Part shown: positions 58,428 through 64,000 of the stretch, piece by piece | Position numbering within the stretch: position 1 is the first letter of the stretch | Layout: each line of letters opens with the position of its first letter | Assembly: GCA_902384935.1 (NCBI GenBank) | Contig: CABMDO010000009.1 | Span: forward strand, 74,983 to 138,982 | Length of the DNA stretch: 64,000 nt | Source: Candidatus Norongarragalina meridionalis | GTDB lineage: Archaea > Micrarchaeota > Micrarchaeia > Norongarragalinales > Norongarragalinaceae | Direction of reading: 5' to 3' | The notes under the pieces: model-generated | Databases searched by the model: none | Told to the model about the DNA's origin: nothing | What the model saw: the letters and a program-made list of their open reading frames with translations, nothing else | Made by a program: the position numbers and the translations under genes

Positions 58428-58595
58428 ATGACCGTTGTCGGCGACGATTTCATACTGAATTGCAGGAACTGCTTCTCGAAGCACGGCTACGGCGTGAGGC
58501 TGAAGGCGAACGGCGGCACGATGATGTGCCCGCAGTGCCGCGAGGAATACGTAGTCAAGAGAGGATTCCTCGAGAATGTGACAGCCAGGCGTTAG
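58428..58595 (+). CDS. small zinc-ribbon protein
   Basis: 55 aa with CRNC...CPQC. Confidence 0.35.
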   Translation: MTVVGDDFILNCRNCFSKHGYGVRLKANGGTMMCPQCREEYVVKRGFLENVTARR

Positions 58596-59283
58596 CGGCG
58601 GAATAATAGCGGAACTTTTTCTCGTCATCCTTGAATTCGCCCGAGTGAACTGTTCGTCGCATGCTTTTTCCCCTCTGATAGAGGACGCGGTGCTTGCAGT
58701 GCAGCAATTCGTGATAGACCACGTACTCGACGACGAATTCCGGAACGCGCGGATTGTCTAGAGTCTTATTGATTACGATTTGCGAGAACGCGGAATCGTG
58801 GAAACCGAGAACGCGCGAACCGCGATGCGAAGACCAGACAACCGAGGGGGAAGGAATACCCGTGAAAATCTCGGCGTATTCGGTTCTGACGCGCGCCATT
58901 ATTTCCATCAGGTCGTACGCAGTTCCTCTCGCGTTTTCCTCCCGTTTTCTGCCCCGCCCCCTGCGCAGCGCATCGTGCAGATGCGAAACGCTTTCGCGCG
59001 AAACGAATTCGCGGTATTCGTCGACGTAAGGCGAGGAGATTTTCCTGCGGTAGATTTTCGACAGCAGCGAGAGCGCGAGCCCGACGAGAACGTCCCTCGA
59101 AGCCACGGCATAGCCGTCGCTCACCGACGCAAAAACATTTCCACTGCGCAGGCGCACGCTCGCGCCGAGCCCGGCGCGCCTGCGGAATCGCGCGTCGACG
59201 TGCGCATTTTCGCCGAGAATCGCCATTGCGGAGCAAAAAGCTTCCTGCAGCGCGGAGTTTTCCACGGAAAAAAAACCGCGCAA
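58555..59283 (-). CDS. DUF45/YgjP-like metal-dependent hydrolase (HExxH)
   Basis: WSSHRGSRVLGFH...INKTLDNPRVPEFVVEYVVYHELLH parallels the DUF45 WGSC...YVVvHELaHL block. TATA-like box ~25 nt upstream of the start. Confidence 0.45.
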   Translation of the reverse strand: MRGFFSVENSALQEAFCSAMAILGENAHVDARFRRRAGLGASVRLRSGNVFASVSDGYAVASRDVLVGLALSLLSKIYRRKISSPYVDEYREFVSRESVSHLHDALRRGRGRKREENARGTAYDLMEIMARVRTEYAEIFTGIPSPSVVWSSHRGSRVLGFHDSAFSQIVINKTLDNPRVPEFVVEYVVYHELLHCKHRVLYQRGKSMRRTVHSGEFKDDEKKFRYYSAANAWLSHSRGILS

Positions 59284-59299
59284 ACAAATATATACTCCG

Positions 59300-59640
59300 C
59301 TTGAATCATGAATTCATCACTTAACGGGGTGAAAACACATGGCAAAGAAAAAGAAGAAGAAGAAGAAATAATTCCGTTAAAGCGGAACGGAAATCGTAGT
59401 CTTGATTTTTCCCTCCCCTGTTTTTAGAAATTTTTGGAAAAGCTTAAATACTTCTTTTGTTTGATGAATTCGCCCTCACAAGGGCGGTGAAAACAATAAT
59501 GATGAAGAAGAAGAAGAAGAAATAAAGCAGATTTGTCCGCTGACGAATTCTGAAACTGTTGCCTTGATTCTCTTTCTTCTTTTTTATTTTTCGTCTCCCG
59601 CATGACGCATCCCCGAGATGCGTCGAACGGGGGTTCTTTC
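59300..59640. repeat. duplicated ~70-bp element with poly-lysine micro-ORFs and flanking hairpins
   Basis: Two copies of ATGAATTC-N10-13-GG(G/C)GGTGAAAACA-ATG-(AAG)n-AAATAA, encoding MAKKKKKKKK* (59339..59371) and MMKKKKKK* (59499..59525). Hairpins CGCCCTcacaaGGGCG and GACGCATCcccgaGATGCGTC. Confidence 0.5.
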
Positions 59641-59687
59641 TCCGTTTTCTGCAAGGTTTATATCGCGGAAGTTCCCGATATTATCTT

Positions 59688-61925
59688 ATGCCCGAATTCG
59701 CGGAACTACCGGAAACTATGCGGAAAATCCGCGTGCCCAGGGACCTCCACGAGTATCTTGACAGGATAGAGGATGCGGCAGGCGGGAACAGCACCGAGGC
59801 AATAGTAAACACGTCACTGCTTAGCGAATACGGCCCCGCGTCGACGCTGCATTTCCTCAGGCTCATCAAAAGCGCCAGAACCGTGCAGGGCGTGGAAGCC
59901 GCCGCCTCGCAGGCTACCATCATGCTCAAGCAGCTGAAGGAACTAAAGGAAATGGGCTTCAAAGACAAAACGCTCAGGGAACTTTATGCTCCGGTTTACA
60001 GGGAATACTTCGGAAGGGAGTCCACTTCCAAGGACAGGATCGAGAAATACATCGACAGGACGTTCGGCTTCATCGAGAGCAGGGACCCGCAGGTGCTATC
60101 GCTCACCGTGGACCAGTTGTACAGCAGGGCGTTCGGCGGAATCGCGGACGCTTTCGGGAGGGAAAACACGCGCGACGAAGCGCGCGCGCGGCTCGCAATA
60201 ACCCTGTCCGAGGCGGGGCTGCTGCCCGAAATGATTCAGAGCGGAATCGCGACAAACGGAATAGTCCGCGCCATGGAGCTCGCCGCAAAGAAAACTGGAA
60301 TCGGCATGACCGAAACCGTGCGCAACGAGGAGGGCGAAATCGAGGACAGACATCTTACCGGAAGGAAAATCGCTTCGATCCTGCTGAAGACGTCGCAGGC
60401 GCTGCCTGACCCGAGGAAACGCCTGATAATCGCCCTCAGGGTTTTCGAGAGCGGAGAAGAAGCGGCGAGAGCATTGGGCGAAACCGCCCTGAACGAGACG
60501 CTCGAAGACGAAAACAGCGTCATGGACGCGATCGGTTTGCTTAGGCAGACGGAAACTGAAGACAGCAGTAACCTTCTGTCGAACAGGATACGCAGCTCAT
60601 TCTCGAAACTCGAGGGGGAAGGGCGCGGCGAAACGCTGCGCAGGGCGATGGATGCGCTCGGCGAACTGGCGACTTCGGAAGTAAGCGGAGCGGTTCCGAA
60701 CGCAACGGCAGCCGCGGACACTATACGGAGCATAGTTCTCAAGGACGGGAAATACGTCTGGACCCACGACGAGGTACCACCAAAACGCAGGAAATTTCTG
60801 GGTTTGAAGTTAGGAAAGCATAAAACGCCGCCTAAGGCGATAGATTACCTTTTCAGCGCAATGGGAATACACGGAAACAACGAGACTTTCGCGAAAACCG
60901 CGTCGAACATATTGCGCGAGATGCCGGTCGAGGAGCTCATGCGCAGGGAAAGGTTCGAAGAATACGTTTATCCGATGCTCTCGACAATCGAAAGCAGGGC
61001 GAACTCCGATGAGCGAAAGGAACTCCTCAGGAAGTTCGGCAGGATACTCGCGCACGGGGACTTCCACAAGGGAATCGGGCGCTTCCTCACGAGCAGGCGC
61101 GGCGCGGAAACGACCAAGAGCATAGTGCACACGCTCAGCGATGTCGCCACGAAACCCAACGAAACGCCGACAAATGTGATGTGGTCGGTCGGGCTCATTC
61201 GCAGGGTAATGCTGAAGGCGCCGCGCATGCCCATGGACCCGACGACGAAGAAGAAGATAACGGACGCCATCACCGCGGGCATGACGAACAAGTCCGGCCC
61301 CGTGCACGTGCTCTCTTACAAGACCACCTACGACCTGGAATCCAAGATTCCGAAACTTAAATGGCTGAGCCACGACGTCGTGCCGAACTACAACAAGTTC
61401 GTGGAGATAACCCGGATAAATCCCCTGAGGCAGAAGATAGACGATCTGGAAGCCGAGATGCTGCTCAAGAAAAGGCGCATGGAAGAATTGGGCCCGGAGG
61501 CGGACGAAGCGAAGCTGCTGCGCGCCGAAAAGGAAACTCTCACCAAAAGGCTGCAGGAGACGCGCCAGATGCTGGCGGAGGAACACCAGGGGCATGCCGT
61601 CCTGCTGCAGATACTCGCGGGATTGAAGAAGCGCAAACTGTTTTCGCACACGGAAACGCCGACACTGAGCGAGGAAGGGAAAAAGCTCATCGACGACGAA
61701 CTGAGAATGCACGTGGAAGAGCTCGGAAGCGACATAATAAGGCAGGCGCACGAATACGTGAGAACCCAGCAGGGCAGGGAACTGAAGCTCAAGGAAATTC
61801 AGGAAGAACTCAGGGCGATGCAAGCGGTGCTCGCCGCCGCGCCGAAACCGTCGCGGAGGATTCCGCGCGGGGAAATCGCAGGTCTTAGGAAAGAACTGGA
61901 AGACCTTCTGAAAATCATCGGCTGA
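59688..61925 (+). CDS. large hypothetical protein with C-terminal coiled coil
   Basis: 745-aa ORF with balanced composition and no recognisable catalytic motif. The C-terminal ~150 aa are heptad-like and charged (KIDDLEAEMLLKKRRMEELG...). Confidence 0.5.
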   Translation: MPEFAELPETMRKIRVPRDLHEYLDRIEDAAGGNSTEAIVNTSLLSEYGPASTLHFLRLIKSARTVQGVEAAASQATIMLKQLKELKEMGFKDKTLRELYAPVYREYFGRESTSKDRIEKYIDRTFGFIESRDPQVLSLTVDQLYSRAFGGIADAFGRENTRDEARARLAITLSEAGLLPEMIQSGIATNGIVRAMELAAKKTGIGMTETVRNEEGEIEDRHLTGRKIASILLKTSQALPDPRKRLIIALRVFESGEEAARALGETALNETLEDENSVMDAIGLLRQTETEDSSNLLSNRIRSSFSKLEGEGRGETLRRAMDALGELATSEVSGAVPNATAAADTIRSIVLKDGKYVWTHDEVPPKRRKFLGLKLGKHKTPPKAIDYLFSAMGIHGNNETFAKTASNILREMPVEELMRRERFEEYVYPMLSTIESRANSDERKELLRKFGRILAHGDFHKGIGRFLTSRRGAETTKSIVHTLSDVATKPNETPTNVMWSVGLIRRVMLKAPRMPMDPTTKKKITDAITAGMTNKSGPVHVLSYKTTYDLESKIPKLKWLSHDVVPNYNKFVEITRINPLRQKIDDLEAEMLLKKRRMEELGPEADEAKLLRAEKETLTKRLQETRQMLAEEHQGHAVLLQILAGLKKRKLFSHTETPTLSEEGKKLIDDELRMHVEELGSDIIRQAHEYVRTQQGRELKLKEIQEELRAMQAVLAAAPKPSRRIPRGEIAGLRKELEDLLKIIG

Positions 61926-61962: not shown

Positions 61963-62240
61963 GGGGACGGCGGGTTGCACGGCTGTCGGTATCCTCCCGT
62001 CAAACGGAGGAGGCTGAGGAAGTTCCGCCCACCATTTGCGAGAGCAAAGTGTTAGATGCGCAAGCATCCCCGTCTAAGACGGGAGCGTGGAACAGAAACG
62101 AACCGCGCCGAGAGCAGGATGACGAACAGGACGTTTCTCGGAATGCGGATGAAACGCGCCGCGCTTGGTGCAAGTGCTTTACGCACGCTAAGTCGAATGC
62201 CGTGGACAACAGAAGGCGGGCTACGGACTCGCCGTCCCAC
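61963..62240 (+). ncRNA. rnpB: probable RNase P RNA (archaeal type A)
   Basis: ~278 nt between CDSs. Ends pair (GGGGACGGCG/CGCCGTCCC, P1), P3-like hairpin CCUCCCgucaaaCGGAGG. AGGAAGUUCCGCCCACC resembles the CR-I/P4 5' strand AGGAAAGUCCGGGCUCC. ACAGAAGGCGGGCUACGG resembles the P4 3' strand ACAGAAnnCGGCUUA. CCGCCC/GGCGGG can form P4. Confidence 0.55.
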
Positions 62241-62270
62241 TCATATTTTAATAGCGGAAGCGTTCTTTCT

Positions 62271-64000
62271 GCATGGCGCCCGACTCGATGCTCGCCGGGC
62301 GAGCATCCAACAAGGACGAGCTGCGTAAGGAATTCTCGAAGGAGTACAGGCAGCACTACGAGGTTCCGCTCTTCAAAAAGGAGGGTTTTTCGCGCTTCGT
62401 CTGCAAGAAATGCGGCAAGGGCTATTGGGCGCTTGAGGAAGGAGCGGACTGCGGCGATTCGTCGCACCGCGAATACTCGTTCTTCCGCGAGAAGCCGCGG
62501 CAGATGGGCTACGCCGAGTTCTGGAAGAAATTTGCCGACTTCTGGAAGAAGAATGGACACGAAGTCATACCGCGTTACCCCGTGCTGAGCAGGTGGCGCG
62601 ACGATTTGTATTTCACGATCGCGAGCATCGTCGACTTCCAGAGGCTTGAAGCGGGGCGAATCGTCTTCGAATATCCGACGAGCCCGCTGATGGTGCCGCA
62701 AATCTGCCTGCGCTTCCCCGACATCGCCAACATCGGCGTCACCGGAAGGCACATGTCGTGCTTCATGATGGCGGGGCAGCATTCTTTCGGAAAGGAGGGA
62801 TACTGGCGCGACAGGTGCTTGGAGCTTAACTACGGCTGCCTGAAGGACGTGCTCGGAATAGACAAGAAGAAGCTGACGTACACCGAGGACGTTTGGAACA
62901 TGCCGGACTTCAGCGCGTTCGGGCCGTGCATCGAGTCCTTCGCCGACGGCTCGGAGCTTGTGAACAGCGTATTCATGCAGTTCTATCTCGACGGAACGCA
63001 GAAGAAAGAGCTGCCGACGCGGGTAATCGACGTGGGCTGGGGTTTCGAACGGTTGCTGTGGTATTACACCGGCGCGCGGACGATATACGATGCGTCGTTC
63101 CCGAGGGAAATCGAATTCATGAAGAAGGGAGCGGGAGTGCACGACACCCCGCTTTTCTCCCGCTATGCCGCGCTCAGCGCCGGGCTTGACGTGGAATCGG
63201 TGCACGACCTGCGCGAGGAGCGCGAAAAAATCGCGAAGAAGCTCGGAATAACGCTGAAGGAGATGGAGGACACGATTGCGCCGACGCAGGGCATTTACGC
63301 TATCGCCGATCACTCGCGCACGCTGCTGTTCGCGCTTACCGACGGCGCGCTTCCTTCGAACACCGCGGGCGGCTATAATTTGCGCGTCCTCGCTCGCCGA
63401 GCGTTCTCGTTCATGGACGAGTACGGTTTTGATTTCGATCTGATGCGCATCATGGAGATGCACGCCGAGGATTTGGCGCCGCTTTTCCCGGAACTTTCCG
63501 AGGGCTTGGATTCGGCGCAGAGGATAATGGACGAGGAAAGGCGGAAATACGCGGAAAGCATGGTGAAGGCGAGGCGCATCGCGGGCGAAATAGTGGCGAA
63601 AGGCGGCGAGATAAACGCCGAAAAGATGGCGACGCTCTACGAGAGCAACGGCGTCACTCCGGAGATTCTCGAGAAAGCCGCGCTGCAGGCCGGAAAGCCC
63701 ATCCGCGTCTCGACGGATTTCTACGGGAAGCTGACGAACAAACACATCATGGAAAAGCAGGAGAAGGAAAAGGTGGAAATCGACGCACCGGCGACGGAAT
63801 TGCGCTACTACGAAACCGACAAGCTCGAAGGAGACGCCAAGATCGTCGCCGTCGGCAAGGACTGGGTTGCTCTTGACGGAACGCTCTTCTATCCGGAAGG
63901 CGGCGGGCAAACCGCGGATCACGGCTGGATAAACGACGCGGGCGTCAAAGACGCGCAGAAAAAAGGGGGAGTCGTCCTACATTATGTCGGGCAGCATTCG
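62271..64000 (+). CDS. alaS: alanine--tRNA ligase (archaeal type), 3' partial at window end
   Basis: Hand translation: MAPDSMLAGRASNKDELRKEF...RWRDDLYFTIASIVDFQ...GVTGRHMSCFMMAGQHSFG...WGFERLLWYY matches the archaeal AlaRS N-terminal catalytic domain. Open to the window end, hence absent from the ORF track. Confidence 0.75.

What the first reader, a model, noticed from the sequence alone, without database searches (positions are those of the whole stretch)
59300..59640. Duplicated element encoding poly-lysine micro-ORFs upstream of a large unknown gene
Two ~70-bp units share ATGAATTC, a GGTGAAAACA box, and an ATG followed by (AAG)n-AAA-TAA, i.e. MAKKKKKKKK and MMKKKKKK. Each is followed by a GC hairpin. 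Homopolymeric Lys codons stall ribosomes, so these could be translational attenuator or leader peptides sensing Lys-tRNA or ribosome status for the downstream 745-aa gene. Alternatively they are a small duplicated MITE-like element or a purine-rich microsatellite.
Basis: seen in the sequence. Interest (0 to 1): 0.5.

Follow-up and report, generated by a model that had tools for sequence, protein, structure and literature searches.

The report
Tandem micro-genes encoding oligolysine peptides
The two repeats are most likely two complete miniature genes of a DPANN archaeon. Each has its own promoter, ribosome-binding site and terminator and encodes an 8-10-residue oligolysine peptide. They belong to an apparently undescribed family of polybasic micro-genes found in ultra-small archaea, with look-alikes in ultra-small CPR bacteria, and they are not a leader or attenuator for the gene downstream.

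Summary
Two tandem ~156-nt units (59286-59435 and 59443-59591) each carry a TATA-like box, a GGTGA Shine-Dalgarno, a micro-ORF (MAKKKKKKKK*, MMKKKKKK*), a post-stop hairpin and oligo-T runs. The window is archaeal (Ca. Norongarragalina meridionalis, Micrarchaeota).

A pattern scan of 185,579 species genomes found about 70 stand-alone M-A-(A)-K6-9 micro-ORFs, 43 in DPANN-type archaeal loci and 22 in CPR bacteria. A sample of relatives chosen only through the neighbouring SprT-like gene carries, at the same position, MAKRRRRRR, MAKKRRRR, MAAKRRRRRR (GTG start) and MKKKRKKK, written with AGA/CGC codons. Selection therefore acts on a polycationic peptide, not on (AAG)n RNA or on Lys codons.

The downstream 745-aa ORF is a lineage-specific insertion with its own promoter. 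The conserved order is SprT-like gene, micro-gene(s), RNase P RNA, AlaRS. The attenuator, Lys-tRNA-sensor, MITE and microsatellite readings are not supported.

The most likely product is a small polycation that binds nucleic acid. That function is inferred, and no expression data exist. I found no prior description in Rfam or in nine full-text literature searches.

The parts
59286..59295 (.). TATA-like box AAATATATAC, promoter of micro-gene 1. It is near-palindromic and probably also serves the divergent SprT-like gene.
   Evidence: Sequence. It is conserved in L113, L048, L168 and L169. In relatives the TATA lies 52-66 nt before the start codon. The GTG start of the divergent gene (59265) lies 27 nt away.
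59326..59332 (+). Shine-Dalgarno GGGGTGA of micro-gene 1, with a 6-nt spacer to the ATG.
   Evidence: The same (C/G)GGGTGA with a 5-9-nt spacer occurs in relatives chosen without reference to the ORF.
59339..59371 (+). Micro-ORF 1: ATG GCA AAG AAA (AAG)5 AAA TAA = MAKKKKKKKK*.
   Evidence: There is an in-frame TGA inside the SD, so the ORF cannot extend upstream. Counterparts: MAK8 (L113), MAK9 (L168), MK8 (L048/L169), MAKR5K (L174).
59372..59392 (+). Post-stop hairpin TTCCGTT/AACGGAA directly after the TAA.
   Evidence: RNAfold -6.9 kcal/mol; also picked up by the hairpin scan. It is conserved in L113, L048 and L168. Post-stop hairpins occur in most relatives.
59401..59435 (+). CTTGATTTTT followed by two more T5 runs: predicted oligo-T terminator of micro-gene 1.
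   Evidence: Sequence. The CTTGATT motif is shared by both units and by relatives. That archaeal termination occurs at oligo-T is my own knowledge.
59443..59450 (+). TATA box CTTAAATA, promoter of micro-gene 2.
   Evidence: It matches TTTAWATA at 7 of 8 positions. It is one of 43 such matches in the window, 26 of which precede long ORFs, and this one has no long ORF downstream. It is conserved in L113 and L048.
59471..59486 (+). Small hairpin CGCCC-TCACAA-GGGCG abutting the SD of micro-gene 2.
   Evidence: L048 has a different insert at this position. Its function is unknown.
59484..59490 (+). Shine-Dalgarno GCGGTGA of micro-gene 2, with an 8-nt spacer to the first ATG.
59499..59525 (+). Micro-ORF 2: ATG ATG (AAG)5 AAA TAA = MMKKKKKK*.
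   Evidence: Counterparts: MK6 (L113), MK7 (L048, L168). The window's second ATG corresponds to an AAG in relatives.
59528..59552 (+). Post-stop hairpin of micro-gene 2.
   Evidence: RNAfold -8.6 kcal/mol. Relatives have GCGGC/GCCGC (L113) and GCGAC/GTCGC (L048) at the same place, a compensatory change.
59562..59591 (+). CCTTGATT followed by a pyrimidine tract with T6 and T5 runs: predicted terminator of micro-gene 2. It can also pair with the purine-rich ORF.
   Evidence: The unit 2 fold is -38.2 kcal/mol, z = -4.3.
58555..59265 (-). Context: divergent SprT-like / DUF45-like HExxH protein (236 aa). It is the conserved neighbour of the micro-genes in Micrarchaeota.
   Evidence: 78% identical to the L048 homologue. 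HELLHxKH motif. Homologues carry PF10263/PF01863 or the name 'M48 family peptidase'. It served as the anchor for the unbiased sample.
59657..59664 (+). Context: TATA box TTTATATC of the 745-aa ORF (ATG at 59688). It shows that gene has its own leaderless promoter.
   Evidence: 31 nt to the ATG, the same geometry as most genes in the window.
61967..62235 (+). Context: RNase P RNA gene. In relatives it is the conserved same-strand downstream neighbour of the micro-genes. In the window it is separated from them by the inserted 745-aa ORF.
   Evidence: Rfam RF00373, 121 bits against a gathering score of 84. The same order is seen in L048, L169, L171, L188, L194, L009 and L027.

Best explanation
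Each unit is an independent archaeal micro-gene. A TATA box starts a transcript of about 100-115 nt. After a 5'UTR of about 20-28 nt with a strong GGTGA Shine-Dalgarno, a ribosome translates an 8-10-codon ORF into M-A-K8 or M-M-K6. Translation ends at TAA directly in front of a small hairpin, and transcription ends at oligo-T runs.

The pair is a tandem duplication that predates the split of the closest relatives. It belongs to a family of polybasic M-(A)-(K/R)6-10 micro-genes in DPANN archaea, and very similar micro-genes occur in CPR bacteria. What is conserved is a short, purely cationic peptide.

Its most likely role (inferred, not shown) is as an abundant small polycation that binds RNA or DNA. 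It could be a ribosome- or RNase-P-associated micro-protein or a general charge neutraliser. It does not regulate the 745-aa ORF.
For: Gene anatomy:
- Both units have a TATA-like box, SD, ORF, post-stop hairpin and T-runs.
- TATA-like octamers predict gene starts in this window, with 26 of 43 preceding a long ORF.

Family:
- The genome scan gave 117 loci and 78 in-frame micro-ORFs, 60 of them exactly MA(A)K6-8 although Ala was not part of the pattern.
- 58 of 71 family members have an in-frame stop within 15 codons upstream. In the phage-contig control, 25 of 35 hits are C-terminal tails of long ORFs.
- 43 members lie in 40 archaeal loci with TATA boxes and T-rich 3' ends, and 22 in CPR loci with bacterial signals.
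- Several DPANN MAGs carry two separate loci.

Coding selection:
- Ala codons are GCA, GCG, GCT and GCC.
- The AAG fraction is 0.64-0.69, against 0.47 (archaeal) and 0.20 (CPR) in flanking genes.
- The mean longest A-run is 5.6, against 11.3 expected.

Unbiased sample:
- Loci were chosen only by the SprT-like neighbour. SD-led micro-ORFs at the same divergent position include MAKRRRRRR, MAKKRRRR, MAAKRRRRRR (GTG start), MAKRRRRRK, MKKKRKKK, MAAKKKKKAKKK and MAKKKTKAKKTSKKKK.
- Residues after the initiator: K 106, R 22, A 19, T 2, S 1, with no acidic or hydrophobic residue. Arg uses AGA, AGG and CGC. The stop is TAA in 18 of 18.
- There are 17 such ORFs in 12.1 kb of that region against 1 in 232 kb elsewhere in the same loci.

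Independence from the downstream gene.
Against: - There is no transcript, ribosome-profiling or peptide evidence for any member. Everything is comparative.
- Peptides of 8-11 low-complexity residues cannot establish homology. DPANN and CPR members, and even separate DPANN lineages, could be convergent.
- The genome scan imposed GGTG, ATG, at least six AAR codons and TAA, so those features are ascertained in that set. Only the SprT-anchored set is unbiased.
- Length changes of 3 nt in an (AAG)n tract also arise by slippage and do not prove a reading frame.
- K-to-R exchange is equally compatible with a peptide whose only job is to slow the ribosome by its charge.
- A free 9-10-residue peptide would normally be short-lived.
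- Only 14 of 31 relatives with at least 39% identity in the SprT-like protein carry the micro-ORF at this position.
- The proposed molecular role has no direct support.
Confidence: 0.68

Rival explanations
1. Regulatory micro-ORF. The act of translating a polybasic run (slow elongation or termination caused by positive charge in the exit tunnel) is the function. Ribosome occupancy would control the post-stop hairpin or terminator, and thereby read-through into whatever lies downstream (ancestrally RNase P RNA, here the 745-aa ORF) or the stability of the transcript. The peptide would be a by-product.
For: - The stop codon abuts a hairpin in most members.
- In unit 2 the ORF can pair with its own 3' tract, z = -4.3.
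- In Micrarchaeota the same-strand downstream neighbour is conserved, namely RNase P RNA.
- In CPR the ORF is followed by competing repeats ATTGGTAA / TTACCAAT / TTGGTAA.
- K-to-R exchange keeps the charge.
- That polybasic nascent chains slow ribosomes is my own knowledge.
Against: - Oligo-T runs follow each unit, and the next gene has its own TATA.
- Most archaeal members are followed by a convergent gene.
- The unit 1 fold is no better than shuffles, z = -0.13, so no alternative-structure scheme is shared even by the two units.
- Codon choice avoids A-runs, the most slippery and stall-prone way to write Lys.
- In CPR a full intrinsic terminator and a separate secA promoter follow.
- Two dispersed copies per genome are hard to explain by a cis role.
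Confidence: 0.17
2. Small non-coding RNAs. The purine-rich (AAG)n tract and flanking hairpins would be the functional part, for example an antisense or protein-binding sRNA or a C/D-box-like RNA, and the ORF would be incidental.
For: - Discrete promoter-to-terminator units of about 100 nt.
- Unit 2 contains TGATGA and CTGA boxes and gave a weak sR52 C/D-box hit (16 bits, E = 2.4).
- Unit 2 folds well.
- The micro-genes neighbour stable-RNA genes: RNase P RNA, and some tRNAs.
Against: - The Rfam hit is far below the gathering score (16 against 50), and the box spacing does not fit.
- Positional counterparts replace AAG with AGA/CGC while keeping the SD, start, frame, stop and charge.
- Ala codons vary synonymously.
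- No E or G codons occur, although a purine-only constraint would allow them.
- No secondary structure is shared by units 1 and 2.
Confidence: 0.07
3. Passive repeat: a MITE-like element, a purine microsatellite, or a T-rich terminator read on the opposite strand.
For: - It is a tandem duplication with a triplet repeat.
- On the minus strand, each hairpin followed by TTATTTCTTC scores as terminator-like.
Against: - There are only two copies in 64 kb and no further near-matches.
- There are no terminal inverted repeats.
- No minus-strand gene converges on the units in the window.
- Both copies are retained in four or more relatives, with conserved promoter, SD, start and stop.
- The family spans phyla and shows K/R exchange.
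Confidence: 0.03

Closest known systems
eL41 / eS32 (ribosomal protein L41e) and other tiny polybasic ribosomal proteins (bL37, bS22, bTHX)
   Same: These are stand-alone genes for very short, almost purely K/R peptides that bind rRNA. They are lineage-restricted and are routinely missed by annotation; Yutin et al. 2012 (PMC3353972) say this of L41e. eL41 is reported in Nanoarchaeota and some Euryarchaeota (PMC9932298). bL37, bS22 and bTHX are from my own knowledge.
   Different: eL41 is 22-41 residues in solved structures. The yeast query carries the segment W-R-K-K-R-M-R-R-L-K-R-K-R-R-K-M; that this core is conserved in the archaeal chains is my own knowledge, because their sequences were not printed. 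The peptides here are 8-16 residues of K/R with Ala and have no W, M or L positions. Ribosome association is untested, and the genes are not in ribosomal-protein operons.
Amino-acid-sensing leader peptides of transcription attenuators (his, trp, phe; the Lys-rich leader of the Thermus thermophilus lysine cluster)
   Same: A very short SD-led ORF with a run of one amino acid, followed by a hairpin and T-runs. This comparison rests on my own knowledge of these systems.
   Different: There is no conserved regulated gene downstream, no mutually exclusive terminator/antiterminator pair shared by the units, and no link to lysine metabolism. Lys codons are replaced by Arg codons in counterparts.
Arrest peptides upstream of secretion genes (SecM-secA, MifM-yidC2, VemP-secDF2)
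   Same: The CPR look-alikes sit immediately upstream of secA, between serS and secA.
   Different: This is not applicable to the archaeal window. In CPR the micro-gene has its own intrinsic terminator, and secA has its own extended -10 promoter with a leaderless start. A 9-11-residue chain cannot leave the exit tunnel to be pulled by the translocon (own knowledge).
Smallest known peptide genes (mccA, 7 aa, microcin C precursor; tal/pri 11-aa peptides of insects)
   Same: Functional products of ORFs with fewer than 12 codons, overlooked by gene finders (own knowledge).
   Different: Those peptides have specific sequences, and mccA has dedicated modification enzymes. Here the product is a homopolymer-like polycation with no adjacent modification or export genes.
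Protamines, histone H1-like K/A-rich tails and polyamines
   Same: Small or unstructured polycations that neutralise nucleic-acid charge (own knowledge).
   Different: Those are much longer proteins or are enzymatically made amines. At least some DPANN and CPR organisms do encode polyamine enzymes (PMC10407285), so a simple replacement scenario is not supported.

Membership tests
Archaeal protein-coding micro-gene (stand-alone sORF) | Own promoter: a TATA box upstream of the transcription start. | tested here: met
   AAATATATAC at 59286-59295 and CTTAAATA at 59443-59450 lie 52-56 nt before the starts. Relatives have TTTAAATA/TTTATATA 52-66 nt before the start. The motif predicts gene starts in this window.
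Archaeal protein-coding micro-gene (stand-alone sORF) | A ribosome-binding site at the proper distance, with start, frame and stop conserved across relatives. | tested here: met
   GGTGA with 6- and 8-nt spacers. In the sample chosen without reference to the ORF: (C/G)GGGTGA, spacer 5-9, ATG or GTG start, TAA stop in 18 of 18.
Archaeal protein-coding micro-gene (stand-alone sORF) | The substitution pattern shows selection on the amino-acid sequence rather than on the nucleotides. | tested here: met
   K/R exchange with AGA/AGG/CGC codons; GCA/GCG/GCT/GCC for Ala; no D, E or hydrophobic residues among 150.
Archaeal protein-coding micro-gene (stand-alone sORF) | Transcript and peptide are detected. 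| not testable with these tools
   No expression data are available. Peptides made only of K/R are destroyed by trypsin, and ORFs under 30 codons are skipped by standard gene callers (own knowledge).
Leader-peptide transcription attenuator | A co-directional regulated gene immediately downstream, conserved together with the leader. | tested here: not met
   The 745-aa ORF is an orphan. Three close relatives have three different downstream sequences. Most archaeal members face a convergent gene.
Leader-peptide transcription attenuator | Mutually exclusive terminator and antiterminator structures overlapping the end of the ORF. | tested here: not met
   The unit 1 fold has z = -0.13, and no alternative-pairing scheme is shared by units 1 and 2. 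T-runs follow irrespective of hairpins.
Leader-peptide transcription attenuator | The regulatory codons are specific to the sensed amino acid. | tested here: not met
   Positional counterparts encode MAKRRRRRR, MAKKRRRR and MAAKRRRRRR.
eL41 / eS32 ribosomal protein | A peptide of about 22-41 aa containing the segment W-R-K-K-R-M-R-R-L-K-R seen in the yeast query. Its conservation in archaeal eL41 is my own knowledge. | tested here: not met
   PDB eL41 chains are 22-41 aa, but only eukaryotic chains were shown residue by residue. The window peptides are 8 and 10 aa with no W, R or L.
eL41 / eS32 ribosomal protein | Located in the ribosome, at the subunit-interface pocket formed by h27, h44 and h45. 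| not testable with these tools
   I found no DPANN or CPR ribosome structure.
C/D-box sRNA | C (RUGAUGA) and D (CUGA) boxes with 12-nt guides, forming a k-turn. | tested here: not met
   The Rfam sR52 hit scores 16.2 bits against a gathering score of 50, E = 2.4, in unit 2 only. The box spacing does not fit, and unit 1 lacks the boxes.
MITE / dispersed repeat | Many dispersed copies, terminal inverted repeats, target-site duplications. | tested here: not met
   There are two adjacent copies only in 64 kb and no terminal inverted repeats.

The most novel reading that the evidence does not exclude
M-A-(K/R)6-10 micro-genes would be among the smallest conserved protein-coding genes known, shared by the two great radiations of ultra-small symbionts (DPANN archaea and CPR bacteria). 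They would have stayed invisible because gene callers skip them and trypsin destroys the product. The peptide would be a genetically encoded oligocation with a dedicated cellular role: an unrecognised ribosomal or RNase-P-associated micro-subunit, or a ribosomally made substitute for polyamine-type charge neutralisation in cells with very little volume.
Probability: 0.3. Interest if true: 0.85.

Novelty: new variant of a known kind. Interest (0 to 1): 0.7.

Why it matters
If these micro-genes are expressed, a conserved and probably abundant component of DPANN and CPR cells has been missing from every annotation and proteome of these lineages. It would add a family of 8-16-residue products to the short list of functional ultra-short genes.

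It would also give a concrete, synthesisable molecule (for example Ac-AK8) to test on ribosomes, RNase P RNA and nucleoids of organisms whose translation machinery is known to be reduced.

For annotation, it shows that long 'empty' intergenic regions in compact genomes can hold complete genes. It also corrects the local map of this window: RNase P RNA, the true AlaRS start, a shadow ORF and an inserted orphan gene.

Tried and rejected
- **Rfam scan of the region:** nothing credible. The Bp1_781 hit at 29 bits (gathering 80) lies inside the SprT-like coding sequence. The sR52 C/D-box and miRNA hits are noise.
- **C/D-box or k-turn reading of unit 2 (TGATGA ... CTGA around a GAATTC stem):** dropped. 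Unit 1 lacks it and the box spacings do not fit.
- **Synteny through the 745-aa protein:** impossible. It is an orphan with only a self-hit among 5.8 billion proteins.
- **Functional clue from neighbours of 43 archaeal members:** clustering and Pfam gave recurrent but unrelated neighbours (a 155-aa unknown, an HTH protein, a BFN nuclease domain, AlaX, Nre), so no functional theme emerged.
- **Identity of the SprT-like neighbour:** no PDB or NCBIfam match. It is identified only by its HExxH motif and by Pfam tags on distant homologues.
- **tRNA adjacency:** three loci within 250 nt against 1.3 expected, P = 0.13 with ARAGORN calls. Not pursued.
- **CPR 3' element:** it is sequence-invariant, so covariation is uninformative. 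It has no Rfam family.
- **Polyamine-surrogate idea:** weakened, because some DPANN and CPR organisms encode polyamine enzymes.
- **Retrieval of the source contig:** not on record.
- **Nine literature searches:** none found a description of such peptides.
Full report
**1. What is in the sequence**

The finding is accurate at its coordinates. Micro-ORF 1 is ATG GCA AAG AAA (AAG)5 AAA TAA at 59339-59371, giving MAKKKKKKKK*. Micro-ORF 2 is ATG ATG (AAG)5 AAA TAA at 59499-59525, giving MMKKKKKK*. Each is preceded by GGTGAAAACA, which occurs exactly twice in the 64-kb window. The 21-mer (AAG)5AAATAA also occurs twice, against none expected in 100 shuffles.

The repeated unit is about 156 nt, not about 70. 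The similarity starts at a TATA-like box (AAATATATAC at 59286-59295; CTTAAATA at 59443-59450). It runs through (T)CATGAATTC / TGATGAATTC, the GGTGA box and the ORF. It then continues through a small hairpin that begins right after the stop (59372-59392; 59528-59552), a shared (C)CTTGATT motif and T5-T6 runs (59406-59435; 59580-59591).

**2. Organism and reading rules**

The window encodes CDP-archaeol synthase. The 745-aa ORF has a single database match, to itself, in Candidatus Norongarragalina meridionalis, a DPANN Micrarchaeote. Archaeal signals therefore apply.

Octamers matching TTTAWATA at 7 of 8 positions or better occur 43 times in the window. In 26 cases they lie 20-75 nt before a long ORF, typically 27-33 nt before its ATG, which is the layout of leaderless mRNAs. 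The 745-aa ORF follows this rule: TTTATATC at 59657, ATG at 59688.

The two micro-ORFs differ. Their TATA boxes lie 52-56 nt upstream, which leaves a 5'UTR of about 20-28 nt carrying a GGTGA Shine-Dalgarno 6-8 nt before the ATG. Each unit therefore reads as a complete small gene: promoter, ribosome-binding site, ORF and oligo-T terminator. The rule that archaeal RNA polymerase terminates at oligo-T is established knowledge, not something tested here.

The units lie in a 461-nt gap between divergent genes, unusually long for this compact genome.

**3. A family, not a local oddity**

I scanned one genome from each of 185,579 species for GGTG, N4-11, ATG, N0-9, (AAR)6, TAA. This returned 117 loci.

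- Of 78 in-frame micro-ORFs, 60 read exactly M-A-K6-8 or M-A-A-K6-7, although alanine was not in the pattern.
- Of 71 family members (including the window's two), 58 have an in-frame stop within 15 codons upstream, so they are stand-alone.
- The same pattern in phage contigs gave 41 loci. Most in-frame hits there (25 of 35) are lysine-rich C-terminal tails of long proteins. This control shows that the stand-alone architecture is not what the pattern finds by default.

By record title and context, 43 members lie in 40 archaeal loci: Micrarchaeota, Aenigmatarchaeota, Nano-, Woese- and Pacearchaeota, Undinarchaeota and unclassified archaea. These have A/T-rich TATA boxes upstream and T-rich 3' ends. 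Another 22 lie in CPR/Patescibacteria loci with bacterial signals. Several DPANN assemblies carry two separate loci with different conserved neighbours, and three other Micrarchaeota loci (L027, L048, L113) carry a tandem pair like the window.

**4. Nucleotide-level selection**

Lysine codon choice in the micro-ORFs does not follow the genome. The AAG fraction is 0.64 (archaea) and 0.69 (CPR), against 0.47 and 0.20 in flanking long ORFs (Wilcoxon P = 3e-11). The mean longest A-run is 5.6 nt, against 11.3 expected from local codon usage. The last Lys codon is AAA in 49 of 67.

Avoiding long A-runs is what one expects if the tract must be transcribed and decoded faithfully. A-runs promote slippage and are the most stall-prone way to encode Lys (own knowledge). 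Ala codons vary synonymously: GCA 52, GCG 4, GCT 4, with GCC also seen at the third position.

**5. The decisive test: an unbiased sample**

The gene divergent from the units (58555-59265, minus strand) encodes a 236-aa HExxH protein. Its distant homologues carry SprT-like/DUF45 Pfam tags. I used it alone to fetch relatives, without reference to the micro-ORF.

SD-led polybasic micro-ORFs sit on the opposite strand just upstream of that gene in 14 of the 31 relatives that share at least 39% identity with the window's SprT-like protein and have enough upstream sequence.

| Locus | Peptide | Note |
|---|---|---|
| L168 | MAK9, MK7 | tandem pair |
| L169 | MK8, MK7 | tandem pair |
| L171 | MAKRRRRRR | AAG AGA CGC AGA CGC AGA AGA |
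| L172 | MAKKRRRR | |
| L173 | MAAKRRRRRR | GTG start |
| L174, L164, L165 | MAKRRRRRK | also seen |
| L183 | MKKKRKKK | |
| L188, L189 | MAKKKKKK | |
| L194 | MAAKKKKKAKKK, MAKKKAKKK | tandem pair |
| L200 | MAKKKTKAKKTSKKKK | |

A variant ending in R with a TAG stop occurs in L201.

Across 18 such ORFs (16 from relatives plus the window's two) the residues after the initiator are K 106, R 22, A 19, T 2 and S 1. None is acidic or hydrophobic. The TATA box lies 52-66 nt upstream in most of them (79-81 nt in two), the SD is (C/G)GGGTGA with a 5-9-nt spacer in most, and the stop is TAA in 18 of 18. Their density is 17 per 12.1 kb in that upstream region against 1 per 232 kb elsewhere in the same loci, about 200-fold.

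Replacing AAG with AGA, AGG or CGC while keeping SD, start, frame, stop and charge cannot be explained by an (AAG)n RNA motif, a purine-only tract, a microsatellite or a Lys-tRNA sensor. It is what selection on a polycationic peptide predicts.

**6. Not a leader for the 745-aa gene**

Window, L113 and L048 are about 90% identical across both units, and their SprT-like proteins are 78-82% identical. Similarity stops right after unit 2's T-runs. The sequence downstream differs:

- In the window, the 745-aa orphan ORF.
- In L113, a 729-aa ORF with only a faint N-terminal resemblance (E = 0.004 in a pairwise comparison).
- In L048 and L169, about 140 nt and then RNase P RNA and alanyl-tRNA synthetase.

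In the window, RNase P RNA is at 61967-62235 (Rfam 121 bits). AlaRS begins at about 62273 and runs off the end. The conserved order is SprT-like gene, divergent micro-gene(s), RNase P RNA, AlaRS. It is seen in L009, L027, L048, L169, L171, L172, L188, L189, L194 and others. The 745-aa ORF is an insertion into that order. Across the archaeal family the downstream neighbour is usually convergent.

RNA folding gives no attenuator scheme shared by the two units. Unit 1 is no more stable than shuffles (z = -0.13). Unit 2 folds well (z = -4.3) only because its purine-rich ORF pairs with its own pyrimidine-rich terminator tract.

**7. How it most likely works**

- Shown by comparison: two independent micro-genes under selection for a short, purely cationic product.
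- Inferred from sequence signals: transcription from each TATA box, SD-dependent initiation, termination at TAA in front of a hairpin, and transcript ends in the T-runs.
- Inferred from analogy only: the peptide acts as a small nucleic-acid-binding polycation. After removal of Met before Ala it would probably be A-K8, possibly N-acetylated.

The best precedents are the tiny polybasic ribosomal proteins (eL41/eS32, bL37, bS22, bTHX), which are lineage-restricted and often missed. Linkage to RNase P RNA in Micrarchaeota is a lead towards an RNA partner. However, that linkage is one conserved synteny, not independent evidence.

I put 0.68 on 'translated micro-genes whose product is the point'. 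I put roughly 0.3 on the stronger claim that the peptide has a dedicated RNA or ribosome-type partner.

The main rival (0.17) is that translating a polybasic run is itself the function. Charge-dependent stalling would tolerate K-to-R exchange, and the stop abuts a hairpin. Against it are the separate terminators and promoters, the convergent neighbours, the dispersed second copies and the avoidance of A-runs.

**8. The CPR look-alikes**

In CPR genomes the micro-ORF (MAK7-9, MAAK7) lies between serS and secA. It is not a SecM-like leader.

- It has a strong AGGAGGTGA ribosome-binding site.
- It is followed by a nearly invariant element (ATTGGTAA, a variable apical insert, then TTACCAATTGATCA[G/A]TTGGTAA).
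- Next comes a canonical intrinsic terminator.
- Only then comes an extended -10 box (TGnTAAAAT), placed so that secA would be leaderless.

No Rfam family covers the element. Whether the bacterial and archaeal genes are homologous or convergent cannot be decided for peptides this short.

**9. Comparison with known systems, and novelty**

Membership was tested and failed for leader-peptide attenuators, eL41, C/D-box sRNAs and MITEs (see the membership table). The closest functional analogues are the micro ribosomal proteins and, by size, mccA and the tal/pri peptides (own knowledge).

Nine full-text literature searches found no description of these peptides, including literal searches for MAKKKKKK, MAAKKKKK and MKKKKKKK. 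Rfam has no model. The peptides are too short for protein databases.

I rate it a new variant of a known kind (small-ORF-encoded proteins). The cross-domain distribution is the surprising element.

**10. Caveats**

- There are no expression data.
- The genome scan ascertained SD, ATG, K6 and TAA, so prevalence is unknown.
- Triplet-repeat slippage also produces 3-nt length changes.
- Micro-ORFs are present at the SprT-linked position in only about half of the relatives examined.
- The proposed molecular role is an analogy.

Noticed in passing
window 61967-62235 (+): Archaeal RNase P RNA gene (RF00373, 121 bits against a gathering score of 84). In relatives it sits directly downstream of the polybasic micro-genes on the same strand, or directly divergent from the SprT-like gene where no micro-gene is present (L163, L166).
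   Followed up: yes
window 62273-64000 (+) and 62000-63922 (-): Alanyl-tRNA synthetase starts at about 62273 and runs off the window end (TATA at 62246; Pfam tRNA-synt_2c, E = 2e-81). The 640-aa minus-strand ORF with no Pfam hit is therefore a shadow ORF, and it also overlaps the RNase P RNA gene.
   Followed up: yes
window 59688-61925 (+); L113 1373-3562: The 745-aa ORF is an orphan with only a self-match among 5.8 billion proteins. It occupies an insertion between the micro-genes and RNase P RNA. L113 has a 729-aa ORF at the same spot with only a faint N-terminal similarity, and L048/L169 have nothing there. This may be a hypervariable or recently acquired gene slot.
   Followed up: partly
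window 58555-59265 (-): SprT-like / DUF45-like HExxH protein (motif YHELLHCKH), restricted mostly to Norongarragalinales-type Micrarchaeota. The annotated 236-aa form starts at GTG 59265, 27 nt from the near-palindromic TATA at 59286-59295, which suggests a bidirectional promoter shared with micro-gene 1. It has no PDB or NCBIfam match.
   Followed up: partly
CPR loci, e.g. L033 3695-3813 (-), L037 2079-2197, L079 3811-3926 (-): In CPR bacteria a MAK7-9 micro-gene lies between serS and secA. It is followed by a nearly invariant element ATTGGTAA, variable stem-loop insert, TTACCAATTGATCA[G/A]TTGGTAA, in which two copies of one arm compete for the same partner. An intrinsic terminator comes next, then an extended -10 box placed for a leaderless secA. 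There is no Rfam family for it.
   Followed up: partly
window 59499-59591: In unit 2 the whole ORF can pair with the pyrimidine-rich terminator tract (-38.2 kcal/mol, z = -4.3). Unit 1 shows nothing comparable (z = -0.13). It is unclear whether this is functional or a by-product of a purine-rich ORF next to a T-rich terminator.
   Followed up: partly
window 59401-59407 and 59562-59569; also L174, L064, L161, L200: A short motif (C)CTTGATT(T) recurs 20-60 nt downstream of many archaeal micro-ORFs, just before or within the T-runs. The CPR element contains TTGATCA. Its meaning is unknown.
   Followed up: no
viral loci L119-L158: Many phage contigs encode proteins ending in ...GG(L/Y)M(T/A)(N)KKKKKK*. 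This lysine-rich C-terminal tail recurs in related phage proteins and was picked up by the same DNA pattern.
   Followed up: no
L001, L014, L058, L064, L065: tRNA genes, some intron-containing, lie within about 250 nt of the micro-ORF in several DPANN loci. Using ARAGORN calls the enrichment is not significant (3 observed against 1.3 expected, P = 0.13).
   Followed up: partly
L164 about 1816-2501: A scaffold gap (run of N) is flanked on both sides by the same 3' part of the MAKRRRRRK micro-gene. This suggests a tandem pair that the assembler could not resolve.
   Followed up: no
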